Part shown: piece by piece, positions 1 to 53,983 of the stretch
Layout of the letters: each line of letters starts with the position of its first letter
Position numbering within the stretch: position 1 is the stretch's first letter
Virus record (IMG/VR): IMGVR_UViG_3300028029_000124
Origin: a virus
Length of the DNA: 64,000 nucleotides
Direction: 5' to 3' (one strand)
Notes under the pieces: model-generated
What the model was told of the DNA's origin: nothing
What the model saw: only the letters and a program-made list of their open reading frames with translations
The model's database searches: none
Made by a program: the position numbers and the translations under genes

Positions 1-45
1 AGGGGCAGCGGGTAGTTTGGTGATATCTGTTTTTTCTTGTGTCAT
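1..45 (-). CDS. 5' end of a hexapeptide-repeat (LbH) paralog, truncated by the window edge
   Basis: Reverse strand from ATG at 45 reads MTQEKTDITKLPAAP, the leader shared by the other paralogs; preceded by the same junction sequence as at 3220-3300. Confidence 0.8.
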   Translation of the reverse strand, partial: MTQEKTDITKLPAAP

Positions 46-180
46 GCTTACTCTTATTTAGCTAAGTATTGTTGGAAGATATCAGAAAATTTTAGTTGAA
101 AATAGCCGTCTTGGTGCCGAGAAACCGCAGGTGTACGACTAATCCTAAATTAGGGGGTAGGACTACTCACTAATTTAGGA

Positions 181-837
181 TTAGTCGTACACCTGAGCCT
201 CGCAGGACACCTTCTCCGAGCCGAACACTTGCGCCCGGCCGAACACCCGCGCCGCGCCACACACTTCCGCCGAGCCATACACCTGCGCCCGGCCGAACAC
301 CTGCGCCCGGTCGAACACCTTCGCCCGGTCGAACACCTTCGCCGAACCGAACACCTCCACCTCACCGAACACCTCCGCCTCACCGAACACCTCCGCCGAG
401 CCATACACCTTCGCATAGTCGTGAACATCCACATCTCCGGACACTTGCGCCCGGCCATACACCCACACATCTCCGTACACCCACACTGAGTCGAACACCC
501 ACGCCTCTCCGAACACCCTCACCGAGCCGAACACCAGCGCCGAGTCGGACACCCGTGCCTGACCGGACACCTCCGCCTCGCCGGACACCCGCGCCTGACC
601 GGACACCTCCGCCGCACCGAGCACCTTAGCGTAGTCGCCCACCTTAGCGTAGTCGCCCACCTTAGCGTAGTCGCCCACCTTAGCGTAGCCGCTCACCTTA
701 GCGTTCGGCCCAACAAACGCCGTGTCTTCTGCGGTAGCCGTGTCCTCTACGAGCCCTCCGCCGTTTGGGTGGCGATGCCAGCCCGCAGGGGCAGCGGGTA
801 GTTTGGTGAGATATGTTTTTTCTTGCGTCATACCCAT
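181..837 (-). CDS. Hexapeptide-repeat (LbH) protein
   Basis: Leader GWHRHPNGGGLVEDTAT..TAFVGP followed by many V-[YFSC]-[GD]-x-A-[KEQRW] hexads. Start moved from ORF-track 900 to ATG 837/831 by alignment with paralogs. Confidence 0.85.
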   Translation of the reverse strand: MGMTQEKTYLTKLPAAPAGWHRHPNGGGLVEDTATAEDTAFVGPNAKVSGYAKVGDYAKVGDYAKVGDYAKVLGAAEVSGQARVSGEAEVSGQARVSDSALVFGSVRVFGEAWVFDSVWVYGDVWVYGRAQVSGDVDVHDYAKVYGSAEVFGEAEVFGEVEVFGSAKVFDRAKVFDRAQVFGRAQVYGSAEVCGAARVFGRAQVFGSEKVSCEAQVYD

Positions 838-904
838 TATAGTAGGGATACAGTAGAAAAATAAATAGTCAAGGACATGTCCTGAACTATTATTTTTCAC
901 CCAT

Positions 905-1402
905 TTATTTTGGTGTTACTGGACACATTTCCTGGCCGTACACATTTTCCTGCCCGCACACCTCCGCCGAGCCCCTAACCTCCACACACCCAAACACTGA
1001 CGATTTACCAAATACTCGCGCCGATCCGTACACCTCCACCTTGCCCATCACCCACGCCTCGCCGAACACCTGCGCCTCGCCGTACACCTTAGCCTCGTTG
1101 AGTACTCTTGCATCGCCGTACACCTTCGCCGCGTCGAACACCTTCGCGTCACCGAATATCTGTGCTGAGTCGTATACCCGCGCCGAGTCGTACACATTCG
1201 CCTGGCCGCACACCTCCGCCGCACCGAGCACCTTAGCGTAGTCACCCACCTTAGCGTAGTCGCCAACCACAGCGTTCGGCCCAACAAACGCAGTGTCTTC
1301 TACGGTCGCTGTATTTTCGACGAGCCCCCCACCGTTTGGGTGGCGGTGCCAACCTGTAGGGGCGACGGGCAGTTTGGTTAGATCTGTTTTTTCTTGTGTC
1401 AT
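905..1402 (-). CDS. Hexapeptide-repeat (LbH) protein
   Basis: MTQEKTDLTKL leader at ATG 1402, NGGGLVE motif, hexad repeats. The upstream extension in the ORF track is an out-of-frame reading of an orphan fragment. Confidence 0.85.
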   Translation of the reverse strand: MTQEKTDLTKLPVAPTGWHRHPNGGGLVENTATVEDTAFVGPNAVVGDYAKVGDYAKVLGAAEVCGQANVYDSARVYDSAQIFGDAKVFDAAKVYGDARVLNEAKVYGEAQVFGEAWVMGKVEVYGSARVFGKSSVFGCVEVRGSAEVCGQENVYGQEMCPVTPK

Positions 1403-1460
1403 GTCACCTACCTCAGAGTGGTACACGAAAAAATAATAGTCAAGAACATGTCCTGGACTA

Positions 1461-1571
1461 TTATTTTGTTGTTCCCGAACACTTTTCCTGGCCGCATACA
1501 TGTGCGTAATCGTACACCTCCGCCGAGCCGAACACTTGCGCACACCCAAATACCGACGATTCGCCAAATAT
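1461..1571 (-). pseudogene. Orphan 3' fragment of an LbH gene
   Basis: Reads IFGESSVFGCAQVFGSAEVYDYAHVCGQEKCSGTTK* with no start codon; nucleotide-similar to the 3' end of 905..1402. Confidence 0.75.
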
Positions 1572-1582
1572 GTGGGAACCGC

Positions 1583-2437
1583 TCACCGCAAGCCTTTCAA
1601 CGCGAGCTCCGCCTCCTGCTCACCCATACGCAATTTTAGTGTGCGTAGTGACCTAGCGTATAGATCCAATCTTCCAGGGAGCTTGTCTTTTCCGGTGAAT
1701 GTTGCCGCCAATAGCCCTACTAGGAACGTTTCGTCCCTATGGGGCACATCTACAGCAGACAAAAAAGCACTGCACTCTACAAACATCCCCTTGCGCAAAC
1801 ATAAATCTACTGCAGAAAACAAGATATCCATGTCCTTGTCGCAACTATCTGAATGGGAGATAGTAGGTTTTGTTGTTGCACCCATTTCGGTATGTCCACA
1901 TACCCATAGGTCACCACAAACCCTAGCTTCCCCGTGCACCTGAGCGTTGTCAAACACTTTCACGCTGCCACACACGTGCACGTTTCCGTGCACCTGAGCT
2001 TCCCCGTACACCTTAGCATCTCCGAACACCCTAGCGCGCCCATATACCTCCGCATTGTCGTATACCTGAGCATCGCCGAACACCCAAGCATCTCCAGACA
2101 CGTCAGCGCAGTAGTATATCTTCGCACGGCCACACACATTTGCTGTGTCTGCTACCCTCGATGTATCGTATACGCAGGAATTTTCGTATACCTTAGCATG
2201 TCCTGTGACTTGTGCCGAACCGTGTACACGAGCGTTGTCGTATACCTGAGCATTGTCTAATATCTGAGCATCACCGTATACCTCCGCTGAGCCGTATACC
2301 TTCGCGTGTGGGGCGACGTACGCAGTATTGGCTACGGTCGCGGTGTCTTCGACAAGCCCCCCTCCATAAGGGTGGCGGTTCCACCCTTCTGGTACTTCGG
2401 GGAACTCAGTCACCAAAATAGTTTCTTCTGTGCCCAT
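1583..2437 (-). CDS. LbH protein with an unrelated ~100-aa C-terminal domain
   Basis: GWNRHPYGGGLVEDT leader and hexads up to ...VCGHTEM, then non-repetitive helical-looking sequence (DILFSAVDLCLRKG...ELALKGLR). Confidence 0.8.
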   Translation of the reverse strand: MGTEETILVTEFPEVPEGWNRHPYGGGLVEDTATVANTAYVAPHAKVYGSAEVYGDAQILDNAQVYDNARVHGSAQVTGHAKVYENSCVYDTSRVADTANVCGRAKIYYCADVSGDAWVFGDAQVYDNAEVYGRARVFGDAKVYGEAQVHGNVHVCGSVKVFDNAQVHGEARVCGDLWVCGHTEMGATTKPTISHSDSCDKDMDILFSAVDLCLRKGMFVECSAFLSAVDVPHRDETFLVGLLAATFTGKDKLPGRLDLYARSLRTLKLRMGEQEAELALKGLR

Positions 2438-2451
2438 AACTTACCCTACAA

Positions 2452-3219
2452 CTAGCTGTTGCTTAGCCGCACATACACTTCTCCGCAAAACTTTACTTTT
2501 TCTGCTATAAAGGAATACCCGTAAACCATGGCTTCTCCATACACCAGAGCGCTCTCGCAGACTTCGGATTCCCCGTAAACTTGTGCTTGATCGCAAACCT
2601 TAGCTTCGCCGTGAACCTCTGAGGTGCCATACACCTCGGAGTCCCCGTACACCTCAGCTTCACCGTGAACCTTAGCTTCACCGTGAACCTCAGCGTTACC
2701 GTGCACTCTAGCTTCAGCGTATACCTCAGCATTTCCGTACACTCTCGCTAGATCGAATACTTGGGACTCATAATATACTTTGGTATGGCCATGCACCTTA
2801 GCGTGCCCGGATACTGTTGCGGAGTCAGACACCTCAGCGCCCCCGTACACCTTAGTGCAGTCGCACACCTCAGCGTTTCCGCACACCCACGCCGATTCGT
2901 ACACCTGAGCCCGGCCATACACATTCGCCGAGTCGTACACCTGAGCCCGGCCGAACACTCGCGCATCGCCGGACACCCTCGCCGAGCCAAACACTCGCGC
3001 ATCGCCGGACACCCTCACCCGGCCGGAGATCTGAGCGTAGCCGCACACCTGGGCTTCATCATACACCTGAGCCTCGTCGCACACCTCAGCATTCGGTCCG
3101 ATGAACGCCGTGTCGGCCACGGTAGCCGTGTCCTCTACGAGCCCCCCGCCGTTTGGGTGGCGGTGCCAGCCTGTAGGAGCGACGGATAGTTTGGTGAGAT
3201 CTGTTTTTTCTTGTGTCAT
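2452..3219 (-). CDS. Hexapeptide-repeat (LbH) protein
   Basis: MTQEKTDLTKL leader, NGGGLVEDT motif, hexad repeats. Confidence 0.85.
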   Translation of the reverse strand: MTQEKTDLTKLSVAPTGWHRHPNGGGLVEDTATVADTAFIGPNAEVCDEAQVYDEAQVCGYAQISGRVRVSGDARVFGSARVSGDARVFGRAQVYDSANVYGRAQVYESAWVCGNAEVCDCTKVYGGAEVSDSATVSGHAKVHGHTKVYYESQVFDLARVYGNAEVYAEARVHGNAEVHGEAKVHGEAEVYGDSEVYGTSEVHGEAKVCDQAQVYGESEVCESALVYGEAMVYGYSFIAEKVKFCGEVYVRLSNS

Positions 3220-3360
3220 GTTTACTCTTATTTAGCTAAGTATTGTGGGAAGATATCAGAAAATTCGGGGTAAAAATAGCCGTCTTGGTGCCGAGAAACC
3301 TCATGCGTTGCGCTACGCGCTGGTGTGCGGGGAAACGGAGGACTACTCACTAATTTAGGA

Positions 3361-3957
3361 TTAGTCGTACACCTCCGTTTCCCCGCACACCAGCGCGTAG
3401 TCCGACACTCTCGCCGAGCCGAACACCTCAGCATAGCCGCACACCCACGCCCCGCCGAACACCTTAGCGTAGTCGTACACCTTCGCCCAGCCGAACACCT
3501 TAGCGTCTCCACACACCCTAGCCCGGCCGCACACCTTAGCCCGGTAGTATACGCTCGCCCGGTCGTACACATGAGCATCGCCGCACACCCGCGCCGAGCC
3601 ATACACCTCCACCGAGCCATACACCCGCGCCGAGTCGTATACACGCGCGCGGTCGAACACCCGCACCGAGCCGTACACACTCGCCGAACCGGATACCTGC
3701 GCCGAGCCGTACACCTCCGCCGAGCCGTACACCTTAGCTGCGCCAGATATCCACGCTTCGCCGTACACCTTAGCGTAGTTGCGCACCTCCGCCGAGCCGA
3801 GCACTCGCGCCGTGCCGTACACCTTCGCGTCGGGCCCAACGAACGCCGTGTCGGCCACGGTAGTGGTATCCTCCACTAGCCCGCCGCCGTTTTGGTGGCG
3901 GTGCCAGCCGACATGGGCAACGGAGAGTTTTGTGGTGTCTGTTTTTATGCGTGCCAT
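3361..3957 (-). CDS. Hexapeptide-repeat (LbH) protein
   Basis: GWHRHQNGGGLVEDT leader and hexads; 3' end and downstream bases match those of 181..837. Confidence 0.85.
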   Translation of the reverse strand: MARIKTDTTKLSVAHVGWHRHQNGGGLVEDTTTVADTAFVGPDAKVYGTARVLGSAEVRNYAKVYGEAWISGAAKVYGSAEVYGSAQVSGSASVYGSVRVFDRARVYDSARVYGSVEVYGSARVCGDAHVYDRASVYYRAKVCGRARVCGDAKVFGWAKVYDYAKVFGGAWVCGYAEVFGSARVSDYALVCGETEVYD

Positions 3958-4080
3958 GTTTACTATTATTTAGTTAGGTATCACTGGCGGATATACGAAA
4001 ATGGGAGGTAAAAATAGCCGTATCGGTGCCTAGGAACCTGTGCTGTGAACTATAGGGTTAGGGACTATCGAAGAATGTGA

Positions 4081-4839
4081 CTACTTACTAATTTCAGTGT
4101 CCCCGAATACACTCGCAGAGCCGGACACCTGCGCCTCGCCGTACACCCACGCTGAGTCGAACACCTGCGCCGAGTCGGACACCCGCGCCGCGTCGAACAC
4201 CTTCGCCGAGCCGGATACCTGCGCCGAGCCGGACACCTGCGCCGAGCCAAACACCGACGCATAGCCGTGAACACCCACATCTCCGGACACTTGCGCCCGG
4301 CCGTACACCCAAGCGTCTCCGGACATCCTCGCCGAGCCGTACACCCACGCCGAGCCGTACACCCAAGCATCTCCGGACATCCTCGCCGAGCCGTACACCC
4401 ACGCCCCGTCATACACTTCCGCCGAGTCGTACACTTCCGCCGAGTCGTACACCTTCGCCGAGTCGTATACACGCACCGAGCCGTATACCTCCGCCGAGCC
4501 GTATACCTCCGCCGAACCGAACACTTCCGCCGAGCCGTACACCTTAGCTGAGCCGTACACCTTAGCGTCGCCGTGTACCCACGCTTCGCCGTACACCTTA
4601 GCTGAGCCGTGCACCTTAGCTGAGCCAGATATCCACGCTTCGCCGTACACCTTAGCGTAGTTGTGCACCTCCGCCGAGCCTAACACTCTCGCCGTGCCGT
4701 ACACCTTCGCGTCAGATCCGACGAACGCCGTGTCGGCCACGGTAGTGGTATCCTCTACTAGCCCACCACCGTTTTGGTGGCGGTGCCAGCCGGCAGGGGC
4801 GGCGGAAAGTTTTGTGATATCTGTTTTTATGTGTGTCAC
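4081..4839 (-). CDS. Hexapeptide-repeat (LbH) protein
   Basis: GTG start, same leader, hexads, family-typical GDTEISK* ending. Confidence 0.85.
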   Translation of the reverse strand: MTHIKTDITKLSAAPAGWHRHQNGGGLVEDTTTVADTAFVGSDAKVYGTARVLGSAEVHNYAKVYGEAWISGSAKVHGSAKVYGEAWVHGDAKVYGSAKVYGSAEVFGSAEVYGSAEVYGSVRVYDSAKVYDSAEVYDSAEVYDGAWVYGSARMSGDAWVYGSAWVYGSARMSGDAWVYGRAQVSGDVGVHGYASVFGSAQVSGSAQVSGSAKVFDAARVSDSAQVFDSAWVYGEAQVSGSASVFGDTEISK

Positions 4840-4902
4840 GGTAGGTGCCTGGCGATGATGTAGGATAAATAATAATAATAATAAACAAGAAAATGTTCTG
4901 GC

Positions 4903-5364
4903 TTACTTAGCGCCCTCGCACACGAGGGCGTTTCCTGATACATTCGCCGCGCCGCATACCTGCGCCGAGTCGCATACCTGCGCCGAGTCGCATACCTGCG
5001 CCGAGTCGTATACCTGCGCATCGCCACGCACCTTCGCCCTGCCAGATACCGTTGCCCAGCCGAACACTCTAGCTGAACCATACACCTCTGCCGAACCGGA
5101 CACCGTTGCCCAGCCGTCTACTCGCGCCTCACCGGACACCGTTGCCTCACCGGACACCGTTGCCCAGCCACCTACTCGCGCCTCGCCGTACACTTCTGCC
5201 GAGCCGCACACCGTTGCCCAGCCACATACATGCGCGTAAGGCCCAATAAACGCAGTATCGTCTACGGTAGTGGTGTCCTCCACTAGTCCGCCACCGTTTA
5301 GGTGCCGGTGCCAACCGGAAGGGGCAGAAGGTAGTTCGTCGACGTATGTTTTTTCGTTGCTCAT
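4903..5364 (-). CDS. Hexapeptide-repeat (LbH) protein
   Basis: ATG 5364 (MSNEKTYV), GWHRHLNGGGLVEDT leader, hexads including WATVSG variants. Confidence 0.85.
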   Translation of the reverse strand: MSNEKTYVDELPSAPSGWHRHLNGGGLVEDTTTVDDTAFIGPYAHVCGWATVCGSAEVYGEARVGGWATVSGEATVSGEARVDGWATVSGSAEVYGSARVFGWATVSGRAKVRGDAQVYDSAQVCDSAQVCDSAQVCGAANVSGNALVCEGAK

Positions 5365-5493
5365 GACCACGCCATTAGGAATACAGGAGAAAAAATAATA
5401 GTCAAGAAATATTTTGTTCGTTACCCATTTTTGTGTCTCCGTAGGCACCTGCGCCCGGCAGAGCCGGACACCTCGTACACCGACGACCGTGAG

Positions 5494-5691
5494 CTACCTC
5501 GATTTTTGGAGACAAGCGAACGCCGAGTCGATAATATCCCTAGTGATATCCCTGTTCTCGATCCTCGTGTTGCCGTAGGCCCAACCCTTGCGTTCCTCGT
5601 CGGTCAGGCGACTCGGGACCTTGTCCTCGGCATGGAGTCTTTTGACTCTTTGGATGAGCTCTTCGGTCGTCATCGATTCGCTTCGCTGCAT
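5494..5691 (-). CDS. Small hypothetical protein (AYGNTRIEN motif)
   Basis: 65-aa helical-looking ORF embedded in the LbH array; start may be the internal MTTEEL. Confidence 0.5.
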   Translation of the reverse strand: MQRSESMTTEELIQRVKRLHAEDKVPSRLTDEERKGWAYGNTRIENRDITRDIIDSAFACLQKSR

Positions 5692-5885
5692 GTGCTGTCA
5701 TCATGGTGTAGTTGTCGGCACCTTGCAAGTCCCAAGCACGCAACGGTGACGTATCTCGGTCGGTGACCATAGTAGTGGTATGGTACGGCGTGTAATTACG
5801 ATAAACCTAAACTATTTGTTGTATTATTATACATGCAGATTCTTTCGTCTCAATGATAAATAAAAATAATAGTCAAGAAACATTC

Positions 5886-6513
5886 TTACTGGTGGGGGTA
5901 CCTGCTAGGAGGGATGTTTAGGGCAACCATGATTTTCCGGATATGTGAATTTAGGTTCACGAAATCTGCCGGTTCCGCAGAGATGGGGAATATTTGAGAT
6001 GTGTCGTTGTCTCTATCTATTAGCGCCCTAACGATATCCGTTATTAGTGATGCGCACACCCTAGCGCTCTTAGTGTTGCGTACCCTTCTTGTATAATTAA
6101 TACAATCTTCTAGGGAGATTGCTACAATTCTACTTTTGTTTGTTTCTTTACCTATGCCCACCAAATCATGTTTTCTGAATCTTAGTTTGCCTAGGACCCA
6201 CTGTGTTTTAGTCTCTCGATCGACCCGTTCAAGTGAATGCTTGCTCTCGCTTATTAACATTACTGCACTCCCTACACCTATTTTATTGCTGCCCATCTTG
6301 TCTATTATTCCAGTTCCGGACACGCTAGATGTTCCGGACACCTTCGCGCGGACTAGCACCTCTGCCCCCGCCGGACACCTGTGCGTCAGGTCCAACGAAC
6401 GCAGTATCGTCTACGGTTGCTGTATCTTCGACGAGCCCCCCGCCGTTTTTGTGGTGGTGCCAGCCCGGAGGGGCGGATGGGAGTTTGGTGAGATCTGTTT
6501 TTTCTTTCCTCAT
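5886..6513 (-). pseudogene. Frameshifted LbH-leader fusion gene
   Basis: ATG 6513 gives MRKEKTDLTKL...NGGGLVEDT...GPDAQVSG; removing one G from the G5 run (C5 at 6365-6369 on +) joins it to ORF 5886..6395 (GAEVLVRAKVSG... plus a unique C-terminus). Confidence 0.7.
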
Positions 6514-6566: not shown

Positions 6567-7529
6567 CTAACTGTTTATTTTTGTGTCGCCGGACACCTCC
6601 TCCGAGTTGTGCACCTTCGCGCGGCCGGACACCTTCGCGCGGCCGGACACCTTCGCGCGGCCGTACACCTTCGCGTCGCCGTGTACCTGCGCCGAGCCGG
6701 ACACCTCCACCTCGTCGAGCACCCAAGCATCTCCGGACACCCCCACTTCGCCGTGCACCCACGCCGAGCCGGACACCTTCGCGCGGTCGAACACCTGAGC
6801 GTCACCGAATACCTGCGCCTCGCAGGACACCTGCGCGTCGTCGTACACCTGCGCGTCGTCGTACACCTTCGCGTCGCCATGTACCCGCGCCGAGTCTAGT
6901 ACCTTCGCGCGGCCGAACACCTGAGCCCGGCCGAATACCTGCGCCTCGCCGGACACCTTCGCGCGGCCGGACACCTTCGCATCGCCGTGTACCTGCGCCG
7001 AGCCGGACACCTCCACCTCGTCGAGCACCCAAGCATCTCCGGACACCTTCGCGTCGCCGAACACCCGCGCCGAGTCTAGCGCCTTCACGCGGTCGAACAC
7101 CTGAGCGGCACCGAATACTTGCGCCTCGCAGGACACCTTCGCGTCGCCGTACACCTTCGCGTCTCCGGACACCTTCGCGTCGCCGTGTACCCACGCTTCG
7201 TCGTATACACGCGCGTGGCCGAACACTTGAGCCGATCCGAACACCCACGCCGAGTCGGACACCTGCGCCGAGTCGGACACCTGCGCCGAGCCGAGCACCC
7301 GAGCCGAGCCGAACACCCGAGCCGAGCCGGACACCTGCGCCGAGTCGGACACCTGCGCCGAGTCGGACACCATCGCCCTGTCGTACACCTTCGCATAAGG
7401 TCCGACGAATGCCGTGTCTTGGACGAATGCCGTGCCCTCTACGAGCCCTCCGCCGTTTGGGTGGCGATGCCAGCCCGCAGGGGCAGCGGGTAGTTTGGTG
7501 AGATCTGTTTTTTCTTGTGTCATGCCCAT
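6567..7529 (-). CDS. Hexapeptide-repeat (LbH) protein, longest copy
   Basis: MGMTQEKTDLTKL leader, long hexad run with internal nucleotide-level duplications, ends GDTKINS*. Confidence 0.85.
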   Translation of the reverse strand: MGMTQEKTDLTKLPAAPAGWHRHPNGGGLVEGTAFVQDTAFVGPYAKVYDRAMVSDSAQVSDSAQVSGSARVFGSARVLGSAQVSDSAQVSDSAWVFGSAQVFGHARVYDEAWVHGDAKVSGDAKVYGDAKVSCEAQVFGAAQVFDRVKALDSARVFGDAKVSGDAWVLDEVEVSGSAQVHGDAKVSGRAKVSGEAQVFGRAQVFGRAKVLDSARVHGDAKVYDDAQVYDDAQVSCEAQVFGDAQVFDRAKVSGSAWVHGEVGVSGDAWVLDEVEVSGSAQVHGDAKVYGRAKVSGRAKVSGRAKVHNSEEVSGDTKINS

Positions 7530-7579: not shown

Positions 7580-8629
7580 CTAGTCCCCCAAGTCAGCTAT
7601 TTTCCTTGTCTCTCCGCTAACGTCGTCGACGTACAATTTAGTGGTTCTCGGGTCCTCGTGTCTAGCCCAAGCAGTTAGTGCTGCCTGGGACCCTGTCCAC
7701 GCTTTTGCCCTGACTGTAATTGCGTGGTGGCGCAATTGATGTGGGTGTATGTGGGATAGCCCGGCGTCCTTTGCTCGTACGGCTACGCGAGCCCACAAAC
7801 GCTTGCCGGATATGGCGTTGCCTCGGTCCGAAAAAAATAGTGGTCCGTGCAGCCCCTTCCAGGATAAAATTGATATCTTGCTGTCCACCACCCCCACCAC
7901 CTCCGCTCTGACCAACAACCACGACTGTATCGCGGCCCACGTTTTTGGGTGTACGGGCTGCCATAGGTCTTTTCCTCCTTTGCCCTGAACAAAAATCTCA
8001 GGTCCGTGCTCCACAGAATCCCTCACGTGGTCGGGAAATAGTATTTTCCCTACTTCGCTGGCCCGGAACCCGTCGTTTCCTAGCAGCCGAAACATTGCTA
8101 GGTCCCGAGGCCCGTGCCAGCGGCGGTCGTCTTCTGTGTTTTGGAGTAAGGCATCCCACGCAGCCCTCCCTGGTCCCCTCACGTCTTTGTACGGGACTAT
8201 CTTAGCCACAGGTATGCACAGCACCCAAGGTACCAGTTCGGCGAAGTTCAATTTTTTCACTATAGAATTGAGGCTGCGCATGGATCTAGCTATTGTTCCC
8301 TGCGCCAGGCCTTGCGACATGAGCTCGGACTGGTAACTCAGCACCGTCTGTCTGGCCTCTCCAGCAGACAGCGCCAATAGATAGGACAATGCGCATGCCG
8401 ATGGGACTTTGCCGCCCGATGCGTCCTCCCACCAGTCGCCGAACCTGCGTACGTCCTGGCCGTACGCAGCAACGGTGTTTTTTCTGAGTTGTCCTAGAGC
8501 CACTCGTAACAACTCTGCGCTTCTGTGCTCGTGGCCCTGTGAACATACTGCAACCGTCCCCGATTCCCTACGCAAGGGCCCTACGGAAGCGGGAATGATC
8601 TCTACTTCTTTAGTTCTGTGTGTGGTCAT
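7580..8629 (-). CDS. Tyrosine recombinase (integrase/Xer-like)
   Basis: Catalytic set in order: GFRASEV (R), QGKGGK (K), HPHQLRH (HxxR), WARHED, TTKLYV (Y); N-terminal core-binding-like region. Likely start MTTHRT at 8629 (track gives 8683). Confidence 0.92.
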   Translation of the reverse strand: MTTHRTKEVEIIPASVGPLRRESGTVAVCSQGHEHRSAELLRVALGQLRKNTVAAYGQDVRRFGDWWEDASGGKVPSACALSYLLALSAGEARQTVLSYQSELMSQGLAQGTIARSMRSLNSIVKKLNFAELVPWVLCIPVAKIVPYKDVRGPGRAAWDALLQNTEDDRRWHGPRDLAMFRLLGNDGFRASEVGKILFPDHVRDSVEHGPEIFVQGKGGKDLWQPVHPKTWAAIQSWLLVRAEVVGVVDSKISILSWKGLHGPLFFSDRGNAISGKRLWARVAVRAKDAGLSHIHPHQLRHHAITVRAKAWTGSQAALTAWARHEDPRTTKLYVDDVSGETRKIADLGD

Positions 8630-8795
8630 GTTGCTGCTTTCTGAAAATAGTGGATGTCTGTGTAGCACAAATAGACAGGACATAATACCTATTTATTCCT
8701 GTCTATTGGCTAGCTATCGCCCTATTGCGCCTATTTGAAGGGCATGCTACACTCGTTATCGCGGAATACGCGACAACTAGAAAAAACACAAAAAT

Positions 8796-47612: not shown

Positions 47613-47617
47613 ACCCC

Positions 47618-47645
47618 GAAACCCCGTGCGGTTAGCTACGGGGTC
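47618..47645 (-). terminator. Cassette-junction hairpin, copy 1
   Basis: GAAACCCCGT-GCGGTTAGCT-ACGGGGTC; recurs at 48289, 49175, 50149, 50851, 51602 (truncated), 52340. Confidence 0.65.
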
Positions 47646-47666
47646 AGTGTCTATAGGGTAACAGTG

Positions 47667-48209
47667 CTACTGGTTAATTATCTCTATCCCTAGTACGCAT
47701 GTTGAACCGCACACCTCTGCTGAGCCGGACACATACGCATCTCCGTGCACCTGGGCATCTCCGTGCACCTGGGCATCTCCGGATACATGTGCGCGTCCGA
47801 ACACCTGCGCCGAGCCGAACACCTTAGCGTAGTCGCACACCTCCGCCGCGCCAGCTAACCACGCATGTCCGCACACCTTAGCCGAGCCGGACACCTCCGC
47901 CGAGCCATACACCCAGGCCGAGTCGTATACTAGCACATCCCCAAACACCTTAGCCGAGCCGAACACCTCCGCCGAGCCGAACACCTGTGCAGAACCGGAC
48001 ACCTTCGCCGATCCGGACACCTCCGCCGTGTCGAATACTTGCGCCGAGTCACATACCTCCGCCTCGTCTCGCACCCGAGCACCTCGCCCAACAAAAGCAG
48101 TAGGTGCTACGGACGCTGTATCTTCTACGAGCCCACCTCCGTTTTTGTGGTGGTGCCAACCAGGAGGGGCAGAGGAGAGACCAATTAGATTTGTTTTTAC
48201 TTGTTCCAT
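47667..48209 (-). CDS. Hexapeptide-repeat (LbH) protein
   Basis: GWHHHKNGGGLVEDT leader plus hexads. Confidence 0.85.
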   Translation of the reverse strand: MEQVKTNLIGLSSAPPGWHHHKNGGGLVEDTASVAPTAFVGRGARVRDEAEVCDSAQVFDTAEVSGSAKVSGSAQVFGSAEVFGSAKVFGDVLVYDSAWVYGSAEVSGSAKVCGHAWLAGAAEVCDYAKVFGSAQVFGRAHVSGDAQVHGDAQVHGDAYVSGSAEVCGSTCVLGIEIINQ

Positions 48210-48337
48210 TTTTTGTTCCTATTTCTTAGACTGATATTGCGGTAGACTATTCAAAATAAACGAGATAAAATAATCGTCCTGGCACCTCGAAACCCCGTGC
48301 GGTTAGCTACGGGGTCAGGGCCCATTGAGGCGGCTGA
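48210..48337 (-). promoter_or_regulatory. Repeated ~120-bp cassette junction (hairpin, T-rich tract, promoter-like segment, RBS)
   Basis: Homologous to 49109-49223, 50073-50192, 50772-50893, 51524-51619, 52262-52389 and partly 52948-53019. Coding strand: hairpin, TTATTTT tract, TTGAAT, GAGTCTAA, AGG(G)AC-A5-ATG. Confidence 0.75.
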
Positions 48338-49108
48338 CTACTCACCAATTTCGGCGTCACCGCACACACACTCTCGGCCACACACCCTCGCCCGGCCGTA
48401 CACCCACACATCTCCGGACACCTGCGCCGAGTCGTACACCCGCGCCGAGTCGTACACCCGCGCATCGCCGAACACCCGCGCATCGCCGAACACCCGCGCC
48501 GCGCCGTATACCTGCGCCGCGCCGTATACCTGCGCCGCGCCGTATGCCTGCGCCGAGCCGTATACCTGCACATCGCCGGACACCTTCGCGCGGTCAAGTA
48601 CCCACGCCTTGCCGTATACATGTGCCGAGCCGTACACATGTGCCGAGCCGTACACCTCCGCCGAGCCGTACACCTCCGCCGAGCCGTACACCTTAGCGTA
48701 GTCGTGAACATCCGCCGATCCGAACACCTTCGCTTTTCCGCATATCGCCGCCTCTCTGTACACCATCGCCTCGCCAAACACCTTCGCCGATCCGCACACC
48801 TCTGCACACTCAAACACTCGCGCCGACCCATACACCGAAGCATTGCCGGATACTTCCGCCGAGCCGGATACTTCCGCCGAGCCAAACACTCGCGCCGTGC
48901 CGGACACCTCAGCGCGCCCGCGCACCTTAGCGCAGTTGTACACCTCCGCCGAGCCCAGCACCCGAGCACCCGGGCCAACAAACGCAGTGGTTGCGACGGT
49001 TGCCGTATCTTCTACGAGCCCGCCTCCGTTTGGGTGGCGGTGCCAACCTACGGGAGCGACGGAGAGTTTTACTATATATGTTTTTTCTTGTCCCATGTCC
49101 GTAACCAT
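48338..49108 (-). CDS. Hexapeptide-repeat (LbH) protein
   Basis: Shared leader, hexads, ends GDAEIGE*. Confidence 0.85.
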   Translation of the reverse strand: MVTDMGQEKTYIVKLSVAPVGWHRHPNGGGLVEDTATVATTAFVGPGARVLGSAEVYNCAKVRGRAEVSGTARVFGSAEVSGSAEVSGNASVYGSARVFECAEVCGSAKVFGEAMVYREAAICGKAKVFGSADVHDYAKVYGSAEVYGSAEVYGSAHVYGSAHVYGKAWVLDRAKVSGDVQVYGSAQAYGAAQVYGAAQVYGAARVFGDARVFGDARVYDSARVYDSAQVSGDVWVYGRARVCGRECVCGDAEIGE

Positions 49109-49223
49109 TTATTAGACTGGTGTTGTGAGCTACTATTCAAAATAAAAGAAAGAAAATAATCGTCCCGGCACCTAGAAACCCCGTGCGGTGAGCTACGGGG
49201 TCATGGCCTATAGGGCAATAGTG

Positions 49224-50072
49224 CTACTTACTAATTTCGGTGTCACCAAATATCTGCGCTTCGCCAAACACCTCAGCCGATCCGCACACATGGGCATCTC
49301 CGAACACCCAAGCTAAGCCGTGCACCAGCGCCCGCACGGACACCTTAGAATTACCAAACACTTTAGCGTTTCCGGATACCCGAGCCGAGCCGAACACCCG
49401 AGCAGAGCCGAACATTTGCGCGTAGTCCAACACTCTCGCCGAGTCGAACACCTCAGCATCTTCGCATATCCACGCATAACCGCACACATTCGCCGAGCCG
49501 GACACCTGCGCATCGCCGGACACCTTCGCGCTGCCGTACACCTGTACCTCACCACACACCAGTGCCGATTCGAACACCAGTGCCGATTCGAACACCAGTG
49601 CATGACCGTACACCTTCGCCGAGCCGTACACCTTCGCCGAGTCGTGCACCTTAGCGCAGTCGTACACCTCCGCCGATCCGAACACCTTCGCTTCTCCACA
49701 TATAACCGCATCGCTGTATACCCTAGCCCTACCAAACACCTGTACCTCACCACTCACCCGAGCCGAGCCGTACACCCGCGCCGAGCCGTACACCCGCGCC
49801 GAGCCGTACACCAGCGCCGAGTCGGACACCAGCGCCGAGCCGTACACCCACGCGTAGTCGAACACCTTCGCCGAGCCGGACACCCGCGCCGCGCCACACA
49901 CCAGCGCCGAGCCGTACACCTGCGCCCGGCCGCACACCTGTGCATCGGGTCCAACAAACGCAGTATCGTCTACGGTTGCCGTATCTTCTACGAGACCGCC
50001 GCCGTGGGGGTGGTGGTGCCAACCTGTAGGGGCGACGGATAGTTCGGTAAGATCTGTTTTTCCTTGTGCCAT
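49224..50072 (-). CDS. Hexapeptide-repeat (LbH) protein
   Basis: Shared leader, hexads, ends GDTEISK*. Confidence 0.85.
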   Translation of the reverse strand: MAQGKTDLTELSVAPTGWHHHPHGGGLVEDTATVDDTAFVGPDAQVCGRAQVYGSALVCGAARVSGSAKVFDYAWVYGSALVSDSALVYGSARVYGSARVYGSARVSGEVQVFGRARVYSDAVICGEAKVFGSAEVYDCAKVHDSAKVYGSAKVYGHALVFESALVFESALVCGEVQVYGSAKVSGDAQVSGSANVCGYAWICEDAEVFDSARVLDYAQMFGSARVFGSARVSGNAKVFGNSKVSVRALVHGLAWVFGDAHVCGSAEVFGEAQIFGDTEISK

Positions 50073-50192
50073 TTTTCGTCCTATCTATTAGACTGGTGTT
50101 GTGAGCGACTATTCAAAAAGGGAGTAAAAATAACCGTCCCGGCACCCCGAAACCTCCGTGCGGTGAGCTACGGAGTTTTGAGATGCTTATTT

Positions 50193-50771
50193 TTACCGCC
50201 TAACAATTTCTTTTCCGCGTACCTTATCTTCGCCACACACCCGCGCCGAACCACGCACCCTAGCTTCGCCGGACACTTCCGCCGATCCATACACTTCCGC
50301 CGATCCATACACTTCCGCCGATCCATGCACCTTCGCATGGCCACATATCTGCGCCTCCTCATGCGCACGCGCCGAGCCGCACACTCGAGCATCTCCGTAC
50401 ATCGACACATCTCCGTACATCGACGCATCTCCGTACGTCCGCGACGAGCCGTGTATCACCGCACCGCCGTAAACCCGAGCTTCGCCGTAAACCCGAGCTT
50501 CGCCGGACACCCACGCCTCGTCAAATACCTGCGCCGAGCCATATATCCTAGCTCCTATGGACACTATCCCCAGGCCGTACACCCGCGCCCGGCCGTACAC
50601 CTCCGCGTGATCTAGCACCCTCGCCCGGCCGTATACCCCAGCATCCGGCCCAACAAACGCAGTATCGTCTACGGTTGCCGTATCTTCTACGAGCCCACCG
50701 CCGTTTGGGTGGCGGTGCCAACCAGGAGGAGCAGAGGAAAGCCTAGTTAGATTTGTTTTTACTTGCTTCAT
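50193..50771 (-). CDS. Hexapeptide-repeat (LbH) protein
   Basis: Shared leader and hexads. Confidence 0.85.
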   Translation of the reverse strand: MKQVKTNLTRLSSAPPGWHRHPNGGGLVEDTATVDDTAFVGPDAGVYGRARVLDHAEVYGRARVYGLGIVSIGARIYGSAQVFDEAWVSGEARVYGEARVYGGAVIHGSSRTYGDASMYGDVSMYGDARVCGSARAHEEAQICGHAKVHGSAEVYGSAEVYGSAEVSGEARVRGSARVCGEDKVRGKEIVRR

Positions 50772-50893
50772 TTTTTGTCCCTATTTCTTAGACTCTGGTT
50801 GTCTAAACGTATTCAAAATAAAAGAAAGAAAATAATCGTCCTAGCACCTCGAAACCCCGTGCGGTGAGCTACGGGGTCGATCAAAGATCGGTG

Positions 50894-51523
50894 CTACCGA
50901 TCTTTGACGCACCAATTTCCGTTGACGCTAATCAAAATTCCGTGATCATCCCAAGAATATATCTCGGCAGTGTCCACCGGGGCGGGGCCGCCGAAAACGC
51001 GTAGGCCGGTCACGTCTATCCCGATATCCATTAGCGACTTGCACGCACCATCGGGACCACAGATAGAATTTTCTGCTCGATTCAACGTCTCGGCCAATTC
51101 CTCCAGGCTGTCGGAGTCGACTACGGCCTGCGCTTCCTCGGATAATTCTGAATCCATGTATGTGATTGTCGTTACGCGAGATCCGTCATATGAGCGGTTA
51201 GCCCCTGTATCCGTGACGCGCAAAATTCCACAATATGCGATATCGACGACGATGACACCCCCATGACGCGACCCCACGACGCTCTTCTGCCGCCACACGG
51301 TATCCCCGTCCACCCCCGCGGGCAGGCTAGGGTGGATGGTTATGTCATGTGACGCACATAGTTCGCCATTAAAGTGAACACCTACGGTCCACGTGTACGA
51401 CCTATCGTCCGTAGACAGATCTCCGGCGAATTGTTTGGCGGCGTCGTACGGACACGCGGCTAGCACCAGATATTTTTCTTCGCATCCAACAGTATCACAA
51501 TAGTATGTTTTTTCTTGTGTCAT
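50894..51523 (-). CDS. Non-LbH cargo protein beginning with the LbH leader MTQEKT
   Basis: Full junction elements on both sides; only the first six residues resemble the LbH genes. Confidence 0.75.
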   Translation of the reverse strand: MTQEKTYYCDTVGCEEKYLVLAACPYDAAKQFAGDLSTDDRSYTWTVGVHFNGELCASHDITIHPSLPAGVDGDTVWRQKSVVGSRHGGVIVVDIAYCGILRVTDTGANRSYDGSRVTTITYMDSELSEEAQAVVDSDSLEELAETLNRAENSICGPDGACKSLMDIGIDVTGLRVFGGPAPVDTAEIYSWDDHGILISVNGNWCVKDR

Positions 51524-51619
51524 TTTTTGTCCTATCTATTAGACTCGGGTTGGCTCAACATATTCAAAATAAAAGAAATAAAACAACCGTCCTAGCACCC
51601 CGAAACCCCGTGCGGCTAG

Positions 51620-52261
51620 CTACCTACTCGGCATAATTAAAATTTCCCAATACCCCCCCGAGGTACCTATATAATCCGAGCAGCTCAACATGAAAATTAT
51701 CGGGTCCATGGCACCCACTCCCAGATACATATCCACAACACTAGGGTTCCTTCCGTCGGCTAGCTTGAGCATCCGCGCCAACAATTGAATGTTCACACGT
51801 ATGTCGCTCGCACGCTTATTTTCGGGTCTTTCTGCAGACTGCACGGCAGCAGAGTAAATTGTGCCTAGCTTGGCACCAACGACCATACCGGAGCTGTTTA
51901 CCCGCACACGCTCGGTAACAGAAAATTTTCCTGACATCTGTACACCATCCACACAAATTGTGGCTACTCCTTCACCTGAATCGTACGGTGCTTGTACGGA
52001 TATAACCGATTTACGCCCAGCCGATTTTAGTGCTATTTCTGCGCACGCTAGTGGTAGGCAGTGAAATGTGTCCGGAATTTCGCGCACGTGTTCACTCCCT
52101 CTGTCCGTACGGACGGCGCACGCATGACCGTCAGTAGCAGCTAGGTGATGTCTAGACACTAACAACGGTAACAGATAAGAATCTTCCTTATTTCCTACAA
52201 TCTTGGACGCAGACGCTATCAAGAAAGACAACTCTTTTTTTGTGATTATGTGGCTAACCAT
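51620..52261 (-). CDS. Sliding-clamp (DNA Pol III beta)-like partial protein
   Basis: LAATDGHACAV and RVNIQLLARML resemble beta-clamp domain motifs; much shorter than DnaN. Confidence 0.45.
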   Translation of the reverse strand: MVSHIITKKELSFLIASASKIVGNKEDSYLLPLLVSRHHLAATDGHACAVRTDRGSEHVREIPDTFHCLPLACAEIALKSAGRKSVISVQAPYDSGEGVATICVDGVQMSGKFSVTERVRVNSSGMVVGAKLGTIYSAAVQSAERPENKRASDIRVNIQLLARMLKLADGRNPSVVDMYLGVGAMDPIIFMLSCSDYIGTSGGYWEILIMPSR

Positions 52262-52389
52262 TTTTTGCTCTATCTATTAGACTCGGGTCGGCTAAACATA
52301 TTCAAAATAAAAGAAAGAAAATAATCGTCCCGGCACCTCGAAGCCCCGTGCGGTGAGCTACGGGGGCCAGGGCCGATAGGATAATAGTA

Positions 52390-52947
52390 CTAATTCCTAA
52401 TTTCGGTGTCGCCGGACACATCCGCCGAGTCGAGCACCCACGCCTGGCCGCGCACCTGCGCTTCGCCGCGCACCTGCGACGAGCCGGACACCCGAGCCAT
52501 TTCGAACACCTGAGCCGCGCCGAATACACTAGCCCCGTCGGACACCTCCGCAGAGCCGTACACCCGCGCGGATCCGTATATCGCCGCGCCCGACACCCGC
52601 GCCGAGCCAGACACTCTCGCCGAACCGAATATCACAGTATCCCCGCATATATGTGCTCCGTCACTAATCTGGGATTTTTCGTTTACCCACACCTCGCCGG
52701 ATACCTTCGCGCGGCCGGACACCCGCGCCGAGCCAGATATCCACGCCGAGCCAGATATCCGCGCCGAGTCCAGTATCTGCGCATCCCCGTACACTTGCGC
52801 TTCCTCGCTGACCTGTGCGTCAGGTCCAACAAACGCAGTAGGTGCTGCGGTAGCCGTGTCCTCTACGAGCCCGCCACCGTTTGGGTGGCGGCTCCATCCG
52901 GTAGGAGCGACGGATAATTTGGTCAAATCTGTTTTTTCCAGTCTCAT
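52390..52947 (-). CDS. Hexapeptide-repeat (LbH) protein
   Basis: Shared leader, hexads, ends GDTEIRN*. Confidence 0.85.
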   Translation of the reverse strand: MRLEKTDLTKLSVAPTGWSRHPNGGGLVEDTATAAPTAFVGPDAQVSEEAQVYGDAQILDSARISGSAWISGSARVSGRAKVSGEVWVNEKSQISDGAHICGDTVIFGSARVSGSARVSGAAIYGSARVYGSAEVSDGASVFGAAQVFEMARVSGSSQVRGEAQVRGQAWVLDSADVSGDTEIRN

Positions 52948-53019
52948 TTTTTGTCCCTATCTATTAGACTCGGGCCGGATAAACGCATTCAAAATAAGCG
53001 AAATAAAAGAAATTGAACT

Positions 53020-53286
53020 TCATTCTACGGGATACGCGCATTCTATGTTTTCCCCGCAAGCGTCGCACGATAAATTGTCGTCCTTCCAATTTATACCTCC
53101 CTCGGTATCCCCGGGTGGTCCCGACAGATTCGACTCAGCTACCGACGCGCAATCGGGACAGTATGCGGCATGGTCGCACACATAATATATCGGGTATCCC
53201 CCCACGAGAGTGAATTTGCGCGCACCACCCGCAGGCATAGTGTCGATCACGGAGATTGTTTTTTCGTTTCCAGACATCCTGGTCAT
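53020..53286 (-). CDS. Small putative Zn-binding protein
   Basis: GGYPIYY, CPDC and CDAC pairs. Confidence 0.65.
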   Translation of the reverse strand: MTRMSGNEKTISVIDTMPAGGARKFTLVGGYPIYYVCDHAAYCPDCASVAESNLSGPPGDTEGGINWKDDNLSCDACGENIECAYPVE

Positions 53287-53671
53287 TTAGACGGATATTG
53301 TTCGTCACCTATTCAATAAAATAAAATAAAATAAAAAGAATAATCGAGGAAGAATACACGTCTAAATTGCGTGAACGTCGCAAAAAACATCTCTTCCGCA
53401 CTATCGTCGCACGTACTAATTGCCGCTTTCGCGATGTTTGCGCGAAAGCGTCAATCTCGCCTATACACGGCGGCGAGTTACCGGGACTGTCAATTACTTG
53501 ACGCGGCAGGCATCGGCGTAGGGTTTCGCGCAGGTGACGCACATTATGCTATGCTATTGACGCCGCGTGGTACGCGATTACTGCGCGCGTACCGAAATAT
53601 GGGAGAGGAAAGAAATAAAAATAATGAGGATAAAAATAGTGTTACGGAGTCTAATTAGATAGGGACAGAGG

Positions 53672-53983
53672 ATGACAAAAACTAAAAATTACTCGGCAGA
53701 AAAAACTGAGATGCATATATGGATCAGCAATACGGAGAACCTCTATGCGCATATTATCCGCATGGAGGAGGAATCACTAAAAAAAGCAGCCGCGGGTAAA
53801 TATACCCGAGCGGCTGCAATCAGATTGTGGAGGCGCGTGGTAAACGACGGGGCCACATATTGCGCTAAGTCCGGAGGGCGAACATTCCCAAAATTGTTGT
53901 GCGAGGAAATAGCTACAGAAATGGTAGAAGAATTCGAGGAAACCGGAGAATTCAGGAATCTGCGGCCAACTCGTTCAATTTGA
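53672..53983 (+). CDS. Hypothetical helical protein
   Basis: Preceded by an inverted copy of the cassette promoter/RBS segment (GAGTCTAATTAGATAGGGAC). Confidence 0.7.
   Translation: MTKTKNYSAEKTEMHIWISNTENLYAHIIRMEEESLKKAAAGKYTRAAAIRLWRRVVNDGATYCAKSGGRTFPKLLCEEIATEMVEEFEETGEFRNLRPTRSI

What the first reader, a model, noticed from the sequence alone, without database searches (positions are those of the whole stretch)
1..53672. Two arrays of hexapeptide-repeat expression cassettes that appear to capture and turn over foreign genes
Seen: 15 LbH paralogs (10 at 1-7529 counting one partial and one frameshifted; 5 at 47667-52947), all on the minus strand with a shared GWHxHxNGGGLVEDT leader. Arrays ~40 kb apart share a junction core (left AAAATAGCCGTCTTGGTGCCGAGAAACC at 99, 3273, 4011; right AAAATAATCGTCCYGGCACCTMGAAACC). 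Several units hold unrelated cargo instead of, or fused to, LbH sequence and leave orphan LbH ends behind. A tyrosine recombinase heads the left array. Known: repeated promoter-stem-loop cassettes (PeSL elements of T4-type phages) shuffle accessory genes by homologous recombination. Inference: a modular gene-capture and diversification platform built on a repeat-protein scaffold; I know of no description of this arrangement.
Basis: partly seen in the sequence, partly recalled or inferred. Interest (0 to 1): 0.88.

Follow-up and report, generated by a model that had tools for sequence, protein, structure and literature searches.

The report
Phage beta-solenoid gene arrays with shuffling junctions
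A new hydrothermal-vent phage carries 15 diverged copies of a common but unexplained phage rod-protein gene in two arrays of single-gene modules, separated by repeated hairpin-plus-promoter-like junctions at which unrelated genes have been spliced in; this is a tidy example of known phage gene shuffling, not a new gene-capture machine.

Summary
There are 15 minus-strand paralogs: 10 on the left (one frameshifted, one cut by the window edge) and 5 on the right. A junction core occurs 9 times against 0 expected. Non-family genes and orphan tails sit inside the arrays, and a tyrosine recombinase lies beside the left array.

- **Family:** The proteins are YdcK-type capped beta-solenoids (PF18836, phrog_5070). 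The "shared leader" is mostly that family's N-terminal cap, which is also found in unrelated metagenome proteins.
- **Junctions:** They are composite hairpin / AT-tract / promoter-like elements, analogous to the PeSL cassettes of T4-type phages.
- **Mosaic joints:** These are real. One cargo gene carries the family's first 5-7 codons, while its 46%-identical homolog in another element does not.
- **Recombinase:** Nothing ties it to the arrays. It is generic and co-directional, and two complete, unrelated IMG/VR phages with 14 and 11 copies have no tyrosine recombinase.
- **Recent turnover:** None was seen. Contigs from three studies match the window wherever they cover it. Two assemblies differ only by four 18-nt (one-hexad) indels inside the solenoid genes, plus a 180-nt length difference in an unrelated repeat gene outside the arrays.

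This scan has found arrays of the same family on other DNA before. Verdict: a new variant of a known kind, of moderate interest. The function of the rods is unknown; I infer early host-directed binders.

The parts
1..45 (-). First 15 codons of solenoid gene J; the gene continues left of the window
   Evidence: 89% direct repeat of 3175-3308. Complete gene in L006:17508-18176.
46..180 (-). Junction I->J, type L2, with core at 99-126 and a fold-back hairpin covering the stop of gene I
   Evidence: RNA fold -22.6 kcal/mol, z -4.08.
181..831 (-). Solenoid gene I (216 aa, 29 unbroken hexads)
   Evidence: PF18836 / Hexapep hits.
832..904 (-). Junction H->I, type L1: AT-rich palindrome whose 3' arm holds TTGACT, followed by a T-tract
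905..1399 (-). Solenoid gene H
1400..1582 (-). Junction G->H: orphan solenoid 3' end (1497-1577) plus palindrome/TTGACT element (about 1430-1467)
   Evidence: Hexad scan; three collinear blastn matches to the tail of H; hairpin z -3.79.
1583..2437 (-). Gene G: N-cap plus 24 hexads, fused to a ~95-aa non-solenoid C-terminus (about 1583-1900)
   Evidence: the C-terminus has no PHROG hit.
2452..3219 (-). Solenoid gene F (255 aa); only 14 nt separate it from G
   Evidence: PF18836 E 6.6e-14; phrog_5070 E 1.5e-86; AF2 model with pLDDT 73.5.
3220..3360 (-). Junction E->F, type L2 (core 3273-3300)
3361..3957 (-). Solenoid gene E (recent duplicate of D)
   Evidence: 89% nt identity to D over the N-terminal 150 nt.
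3958..4080 (-). Junction D->E, type L2 (core 4011-4038)
4081..4839 (-). Solenoid gene D (GTG start, 252 aa)
4903..5364 (-). Solenoid gene C; an 18-nt indel at 4970 differs between assemblies
5494..5691 (-). Cargo c65 (65 aa), preceded by a TTGACT-type element
   Evidence: weak phrog_4580 hit.
5886..6513 (-). Broken chimera: solenoid leader B (6325-6513) runs out of frame into cargoB (5886-6395), which keeps a hexad remnant at 6303-6365
6567..7523 (-). Solenoid gene A (318 aa, 46 hexads); an 18-nt indel at 6629 differs between assemblies
   Evidence: PF18836 E 5e-28.
7580..8683 (-). Generic Xer-like tyrosine recombinase, co-directional with and upstream of the left array
   Evidence: PF00589 E 2e-11. 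XerC/XerD models score 55-65 bits against cut-offs above 329; no integron-integrase equivalog hit.
47613..47666 (-). Terminal copy of the conserved hairpin after gene O, upstream of the DUF2786 gene
47667..48209 (-). Solenoid gene O
   Evidence: a Logan contig spans 47618-48317.
48210..48337 (-). Right-type junction N->O: hairpin, core, AT tract, TTGAAT, conserved GTCTAA box
48338..49093 (-). Solenoid gene N
49224..50072 (-). Solenoid gene M; an 18-nt indel at 49779 differs between assemblies
   Evidence: PF18836 E 7e-19.
50193..50771 (-). Solenoid gene L; an 18-nt indel at 50290 differs between assemblies
50894..51523 (-). Cargo c209: first 21 nt are those of a solenoid gene, the rest is an unrelated family; intact right-type junctions on both sides
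   Evidence: The 46%-identical homolog P0229 in another element starts MSDVKKM-TYHC and lacks the leader.
51620..52261 (-). Cargo c213, an ORFan; its stop codon lies inside the hairpin position
   Evidence: only a self hit among 5.8 billion proteins.
52390..52947 (-). Solenoid gene K
52948..53019 (-). Junction c88->K: promoter-like half only, no hairpin
53020..53286 (-). Cargo c88, a small Cys-rich protein with an A-rich solenoid-like start (MSGNEKT) and its own AT-tract/TTGAAT element upstream
   Evidence: weak phrog_18452 hit.

Best explanation
The two arrays are hyperplastic accessory regions of a novel large tailed-phage-like genome from hydrothermal-vent or epibiont communities. Each gene is built as its own module. 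In the right array a module consists of a stop codon, a conserved 7-bp-stem hairpin, a 28-nt core, an AT-rich tract, a -35-like TTGAAT, a conserved GTCTAAT box, an A-rich start and then the gene. The left array uses two other junction types, one of which shares the 28-nt core. Fifteen modules encode N-capped YdcK-type beta-solenoid rods of 14 to 46 unbroken hexads; most are acidic, but E, L and N are near neutral to basic (pI 6.2-8.5). The family grew by old tandem duplication and unequal recombination, and N-terminal nucleotide identity is 57-89%. Rod length changes by slippage of single 18-nt units. Homologous recombination within the repeated junctions, together with microhomology or illegitimate joints inside the genes, has occasionally placed unrelated ORFs into modules or fused them to solenoid 5' ends, leaving orphan tails. 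This is the same logic as PeSL-mediated shuffling in T4-type phages and needs no dedicated recombinase. Shown here: the anatomy, family membership, mosaic joints, length polymorphism and recurrence in unrelated phages. Inferred: that the junctions act as terminator plus promoter, and that the rods are abundantly and separately expressed early proteins that bind host or defence components through their variable outward-facing positions.
For: Family: PF18836 above its cut-off in all five solenoid genes scanned (I, G, F, D, A); phrog_5070 E 1.5e-86; profile hit to YdcK structures 2F9C/2PIG at E 1e-21, including the cap; a regular solenoid AF2 model. Junction anatomy and statistics. Mosaic joints: c209 shares 21 nt with solenoid starts, while its homolog P0229 lacks that leader; orphan tail at 1497-1577; frameshifted chimera B/cargoB. 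Slippage: four 18-nt indels between two assemblies, all inside solenoid genes. Age and exchange: identity matrix with no clean left/right split. Recurrence without a recombinase: 35 IMG/VR loci carry the cap; complete phages G001 and G002 have 14 and 11 copies, no PolA match to this phage and no PF00589 hit. In G001 both solenoid genes and interspersed ORFs sit behind a repeated TTGACA-N17-TATGAT cassette. The two nearest PolA relatives (46-50% identity) have other small ORFs and no solenoid genes beyond the primase, so the region is variable at depth. PeSL definition from PMC2839356 and PMC4122927.
Against: No transcription data exist, since no RNA run holds the sequence. The simple sigma-70 scan did not call promoters at the junctions, and the hairpin's T-tract is weak, so promoter and terminator activity are unproven. 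No structural variation in module content was seen in three studies, but these were contigs only and coverage in two of them was low. The paralogs are old, so any turnover is slow. The rods' function is entirely inferred: there are no PADLOC hits and no literature on the family in phages.
Confidence: 0.6

Rival explanations
1. Integron-like platform: the adjacent tyrosine recombinase inserts and excises modules site-specifically at the junction palindromes or hairpins.
For: A tyrosine recombinase abuts the left array. Two left junctions carry near-perfect palindromes, and all right junctions carry a conserved hairpin.
Against: The recombinase is co-directional with the array and only weakly Xer-like, with no integron-integrase equivalog hit. 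The right array, 40 kb away, has no recombinase. Each module has its own promoter-like element, unlike promoterless integron cassettes. The palindromes are AT-rich, contain the TTGACT box and end in a T-tract, which fits a terminator-promoter overlap better. Joints lie inside coding sequence. Complete phages with 14 and 11 copies have no tyrosine recombinase, while the control rang in 14 of 14 genomes.
Confidence: 0.05
2. Plain family expansion with no capture: the non-family ORFs are old residents of the region, and solenoid duplicates with their junctions spread around them. The shared first codons reflect gene conversion of a regulatory or translation-start element.
For: Cargo GC equals the backbone. 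The paralogs are old. No content variation was seen between samples. The conserved A-rich start could be a translation element that belongs to the junction.
Against: The orphan solenoid tail after G's foreign C-terminus, and the hexad remnant inside cargoB, show that foreign sequence entered pre-existing solenoid genes. The c209 family exists elsewhere without the leader.
Confidence: 0.2
3. The rods are virion or fibre components whose number and length vary to change host range, in a phase-variation-like manner through 18-nt slippage.
For: Length polymorphism in whole hexads. Beta-helices are common in tail spikes. There is a weak phrog_697 'structural protein' hit.
Against: The genes lie among replication and early-type genes, each with its own junction, and not in the structural block at 12-27 kb. 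The proteins are small and lack anchor or enzymatic domains. In G001 homologs sit behind sigma-70 consensus promoters typical of early genes.
Confidence: 0.1
4. Assembly artefact: the arrays are mis-assembled collapsed or expanded repeats.
For: Logan contigs break at paralog boundaries, and many short cross-paralog 'joints' appear at 85% likeness.
Against: Two assemblers give the same order. Within the arrays the only differences are four 18-nt indels; the one other difference is a 180-nt length change in a repeat gene outside them. Paralogs differ by 11-43% even in their best-conserved part. Contigs span whole modules and junctions, and runs from other studies hold identical pieces.
Confidence: 0.02

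Closest known systems
YdcK family beta-solenoid proteins (Pfam PF18836; NCBIfam NF040481; PDB 2F9C/2PIG; PHROG 5070 and 7964, function unknown)
   Same: Hexapeptide x-V-x-G-x-A repeat. N-terminal cap containing GGG[LW]V..TA.V, which aligns to YdcK residues 52-138. Widespread in phages (72 GenBank phage records by tblastn; 35 IMG/VR loci).
   Different: Far below the YdcK equivalog cut-off (65 bits against 350). Shorter N-terminal region. Fifteen copies in one genome, and rod length varies from 14 to 46 hexads.
PeSL (promoter-early stem-loop) cassettes of T4-type phages (PMC2839356, PMC4122927)
   Same: Repeated intergenic composite of a stem-loop and an AT-rich promoter-like element, bounding single accessory genes in variable regions. 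Crossovers can lie as far as the start of the coding region. No dedicated recombinase is needed.
   Different: This phage is not T4-type; it has a PolA replisome. There is no sequence similarity to PeSLs. Promoter, terminator and mini-circle activity are untested. Most modules hold one protein family rather than assorted ORFans.
Lineage-specific tandem paralog expansions in large phages, including YdcK-like arrays noted earlier in this scan
   Same: Head-to-tail diverged copies of one small family in accessory regions, with repeat-unit length changes.
   Different: There are two separate arrays sharing a junction core, with documented chimeric modules and orphan tails.
Integron gene-cassette arrays
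   Same: An array of single-gene units next to a tyrosine recombinase, with hairpin-forming sequences between units.
   Different: No IntI-type integrase, no divergent attI/Pc layout, no attC architecture, and modules carry their own promoter-like elements. Arrays of the same family exist in phages with no recombinase.

Membership tests
YdcK-type beta-solenoid (PF18836) | Repeat matches the Pfam model above its gathering score | tested here: met
   30.6-94.9 bits against a cut-off of 30 in the genes tested.
YdcK-type beta-solenoid (PF18836) | Homology to the solved YdcK structure, including the cap region | tested here: met
   Profile A3 against PDB: 2F9C/2PIG at E 1e-21, profile positions 21-108 to chain residues 52-138.
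YdcK equivalog (NF040481) | Score above the curated equivalog cut-off | tested here: not met
   65.5 bits against 350.
Left-handed beta-helix acyltransferases (LpxA, LpxD, GlmU and similar) | Score above the family cut-offs, with catalytic and substrate-binding insertions | tested here: not met
   26-36 bits against cut-offs of 207-666; hexads are unbroken and have no loops.
Left-handed beta-helix acyltransferases (LpxA, LpxD, GlmU and similar) | Left-handed triangular helix | tested here: inconclusive
   The AF2 model fits LpxD/LpxA only at about 12 A rmsd, but fits right-handed helices such as TibA at 2.5 A over 213 residues. Model pLDDT is only 73.5.
Bactofilin (PF04519) | Score above the gathering cut-off of 27.9 | tested here: inconclusive
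   23.7-40 bits; three of six genes pass, and the hit overlaps the hexapeptide periodicity.
PeSL cassettes | Repeated intergenic motif between a stop codon and the next ATG in a variable region | tested here: met
PeSL cassettes | Stable stem-loop component | tested here: met
   Hairpin with a 7-bp stem in the right-array junctions (5 pattern matches, plus variant copies); 8 consensus pairs. The left-array palindromes fold with z about -3.8.
PeSL cassettes | Strong sigma-70-like promoter with an AT-rich upstream tract | tested here: inconclusive
   An AT tract and TTGAAT or TTGACT are present, but no -10 close to consensus was found and the consensus scan called none at the junctions. The host is unknown.
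PeSL cassettes | Host genome is a T4-type myovirus | tested here: not met
   PolA, PriCT primase and PD-(D/E)XK exonuclease module; no GenBank phage DNA match.
PeSL cassettes | Mini-circles or indels with crossovers in the junctions | not testable with these tools
   Only contigs are available; no credible joints were found.
Integron | IntI-type integrase | tested here: not met
   Only weak XerC/XerD/XerA-like hits, far below their cut-offs.
Integron | Integrase divergent from the array, with attI and Pc; cassettes promoterless and ending in attC | tested here: not met
   The integrase is co-directional, 56 nt upstream of gene A, and every module has its own promoter-like element.

The most novel reading that the evidence does not exclude
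The repeated junctions, together with the shared A-rich first codons, act as a portable expression socket in non-T4 large phages. Junction-to-junction recombination during replication continually excises and reinserts single-gene modules. This lets a phage both diversify a beta-solenoid binder family (a counter-defence or host-takeover repertoire tuned by rod length and surface residues) and sample foreign ORFs from co-infecting elements. The pattern recurs independently in unrelated phage lineages such as IMG/VR G001.
Probability: 0.25. Interest if true: 0.65.

Novelty: new variant of a known kind. Interest (0 to 1): 0.42.

Why it matters
YdcK-like capped beta-solenoids form one of the larger phage protein families with no known function. 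In this phage and in unrelated large phages they are amplified to 11-15 copies, and each copy sits behind its own regulatory cassette. That argues for a dosage- or diversity-driven role in the phage-host conflict, and it gives a defined set of natural length and surface variants to test. The locus also extends PeSL-style modular shuffling beyond T4-type phages, with unusually legible recombination scars. It does not reveal a new recombination machine.

Tried and rejected
- **Near-DNA searches of GenBank phages:** no match.
- **IMG/VR scans with the recombinase and the DUF2786 protein:** no relatives.
- **Whole-genome search:** unavailable for this window and for the ENA contigs of the PolA relatives.
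- **Foldseek against PDB:** gave nothing below E 0.26. VIA-align gave generic beta-helix matches, and the handedness of the model conflicts with that of the LbH enzymes.
- **Read laying:** The second run used contigs only. Its 14 'joints' have short sides (21-62 nt) at 85% likeness and come from cross-mapping of other paralogs, so I do not count them as excision products.
- **Cargo proteins:** Pfam, NCBIfam and PADLOC gave nothing; PHROGs gave only two marginal hits, for c65 and c88. c213 is an ORFan.
- **Literature searches for YdcK in phages and for beta-helix early genes:** nothing relevant.
- **LfeInf's '18 places':** these proved to be one gene, not an array.
- **N-terminal peptide as a capsid-targeting tag:** I considered the idea that MTQEKT... 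works like the tag on T4 internal proteins. This comes from my own recollection. It is not tested and not adopted, because only 5-7 residues are shared with the cargo, and the G001 homologs start directly at the cap.

Full report
**What the window is.** The window encodes a PolA-type DNA polymerase (33535-35700), a helicase, a PD-(D/E)XK-type exonuclease, a primase (39887-42682), a Dam methylase (45721-46734) and large ORFs without family hits. It has no near DNA match among 50,697 GenBank phage records, and scans of IMG/VR with two of its proteins found no relative. The nearest PolA relatives are 46-50% identical and lie on 124-152 kb metagenome contigs that share the replication-module synteny. 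Near-identical sequence is held by an epibiont metagenome, the likely source, and at low depth by two hydrothermal-vent metagenomes from other studies. The source contig is about 84 kb.

**Observation check.**
- A six-frame pattern scan finds 14 complete copies of GW[HNS][RH]H.[NYH]GGGLVE[DNG]T, all on the minus strand.
- A fifteenth gene begins at 45 and runs off the left edge. An independent MEGAHIT assembly (L006) shows it complete (222 aa), followed by a non-family 225-aa ORF and a PIF1 helicase.
- The ORF at 7580-8683 is a tyrosine recombinase.
- Non-family ORFs c209, c213, c88, c65 and cargoB lie inside the arrays, and gene G has a foreign C-terminus.
- An orphan solenoid tail at 1497-1577 is collinear with the last ~110 nt of gene H.

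**Not an assembly artefact.** L006 and L008 reproduce the window over 17.6 kb and 21 kb. The only differences inside the arrays are four 18-nt indels in genes A, C, L and M. The one other difference is a 180-nt length change in an unrelated 12-nt-repeat gene. Logan contigs span whole modules, for example 47618-48317 and 50812-52328. A contig from a different study spans the c213->c209 junction with no differences.

**What the proteins are.**
- The five solenoid genes scanned against Pfam (I, G, F, D, A) all match PF18836 (YdcK beta-solenoid repeat) above its cut-off.
- Gene F hits phrog_5070 at E 1.5e-86; that family has no assigned function.
- A profile of the family hits the YdcK structures 2F9C/2PIG at E 1e-21, and the match includes the cap.
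- Scores for acyltransferase models and for the YdcK equivalog are far below their cut-offs.
- The hexad is [KQREW]-V-[YFSCH]-[GD]-[SDER]-A, with V and A above 85% conserved and the other positions variable. Rods have 14-46 unbroken hexads. Eleven of the fourteen are acidic (pI 4.6-5.5); E, L and N have pI 6.2-8.5.
- AF2 gives a regular solenoid (pLDDT 73.5). Its handedness is uncertain, because it superposes on right-handed helices at 2.5-4 A but on LbH enzymes only at about 12 A.

**The 'leader'.** The motif H.HPNGGG[LW]V..TA.V..TA.VGP.A.V is present in 21 of the 120 best metagenome homologs, which are otherwise only 36-55% identical. It is also present in 35 IMG/VR loci. It is therefore the family's N-terminal cap. 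Only the first ~13 residues (M-T-Q-E-K-T-D-L-T-K-L...) are specific to this phage.

**Junction anatomy.**
- *Right array.* A module runs: stop codon, about 20 nt, a hairpin (7-bp stem, 10-nt loop), the 28-nt core, a T-rich tract, TTGAAT, 17-18 nt, the GTCTAAT(A/G)A box, an A-rich leader, then ATG. The hairpin pattern matches five times within three mismatches, and variant copies follow genes L and c213. Its stem is kept in all copies.
- *Cargo and neighbours.* The same junction precedes the cargo genes c213 and c209. The promoter-like half precedes c88. The GTCTAAT box, mirrored, precedes the plus-strand gene at 53672.
- *Left array.* There are two junction types. L1 has TTGACT followed by a T-rich spacer, and in G->H and H->I it is preceded by an inverted copy that forms an AT-rich hairpin ending in a T-tract. 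L2 shares the 28-nt core with the right array.
- *Distribution and activity.* The motifs are confined to the arrays within this window. A simple sigma-70 scan did not call them, and the hairpin's T-tract is weak, so promoter and terminator activity remain inferred.
- *Match to PeSLs.* The layout fits the published description of PeSLs: a stem-loop plus an AT-rich sigma-70-like promoter in the intergenic regions of hyperplastic segments, recombining without a known dedicated enzyme (PMC2839356, PMC4122927).

**Evidence for shuffling.**
- The first 21 nt of c209 are those of a solenoid gene (18 of 18 identical to A and F), and the sequence then diverges. Its only close homolog, P0229 (46% identity), lies in a different element of the same sample, inside an ordinary operon. 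P0229 starts MSDVKKM-TYHC, whereas c209 starts MTQEK-TYYC. The joint therefore lies at the shared TY.
- G consists of the cap and 24 hexads, then ~95 foreign residues, with the displaced solenoid tail left downstream.
- B/cargoB is a frameshifted chimera with a hexad remnant.
- The stop codon of c213 lies in the hairpin position.
- Cargo GC (43-54%) equals the backbone (49%). The solenoid genes are GC-rich (54-66%) because of their composition.

**Age and rate.**
- N-terminal nucleotide identity among the paralogs is 57-89%. Only D and E look recent, and left and right copies interleave.
- No difference in module content was seen among the three studies. Coverage there is low and contig-based, so rare variants are invisible.
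- The four 18-nt indels show that rod length changes by single hexads. An earlier window of this scan reported the same behaviour for a related family.

**Is the recombinase part of it?**
- It is only weakly Xer-like, co-directional with the array and 56 nt upstream of gene A.
- The right array has no recombinase.
- Two complete IMG/VR phages carry 14 and 11 copies of the capped family: G001 (176 kb) and G002 (151 kb). They show no PolA match to this phage and have no tyrosine recombinase, while the control search rang in 14 of 14 genomes.
- In G001 the solenoid genes and interspersed unrelated ORFs each follow a repeated TTGACA-N17-TATGAT cassette. The architecture therefore recurs without any recombinase.
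- The two nearest PolA relatives have other small ORFs, and no solenoid genes, beyond the primase.

**Conclusion.** The arrays are a real and large lineage-specific expansion of a catalogued but functionally unknown phage family. They are organised as PeSL-like single-gene modules with clear recombination scars. The 'capture platform' reading is right about modularity and chimeras, but it is not supported as a dedicated or active mechanism. The function of the rods remains an inference: early, separately expressed host- or defence-binding proteins.

Noticed in passing
window 44308-44520 (ORF 44088-44582, minus strand): A 12-nt tandem repeat encodes (ADVA)n. The two assemblies differ here by 180 nt, bounded by a 38-nt overlap, so repeat number is polymorphic or collapsed in one assembly.
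   Followed up: partly
window 18396-18568 and 21406-21578: The two large minus-strand ORFs 15122-18796 and 19545-21806 share a duplicated N-terminal segment with identical peptide stretches in the hexad scan.
   Followed up: no
window 128-195: An inverted copy of gene I's last codons forms a strong hairpin across its stop codon (-22.6 kcal/mol, z -4.08), in the place where other junctions carry the conserved hairpin.
   Followed up: partly
L046 (IMG/VR G001:108000-127999) and L047: An unrelated 176-kb, 35%-GC phage has 14 capped solenoid genes in clusters. Each gene, and the interspersed small ORFs, sits behind a nearly identical TTGACA-N17-TATGAT cassette.
   Followed up: partly
L051:9404-10063: A 46%-identical homolog of cargo c209 lies in a different mobile element or phage of the same sample, beside SSB, VRR-NUC, methyltransferase and HTH genes.
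   Followed up: partly
AF2 model of window 2455-3219 (minus strand): The model superposes on right-handed beta-helices (TibA, 2.5 A over 213 residues) but on left-handed acyltransferases only at about 12 A rmsd. The handedness of this family's fold deserves a direct check against 2F9C.
   Followed up: no
window 53287-53671: A 385-nt divergent control region lies between c88 (minus strand) and the plus-strand gene at 53672. The AT-tract/TTGAAT element faces c88, and the GTCTAAT box occurs on both sides.
   Followed up: partly
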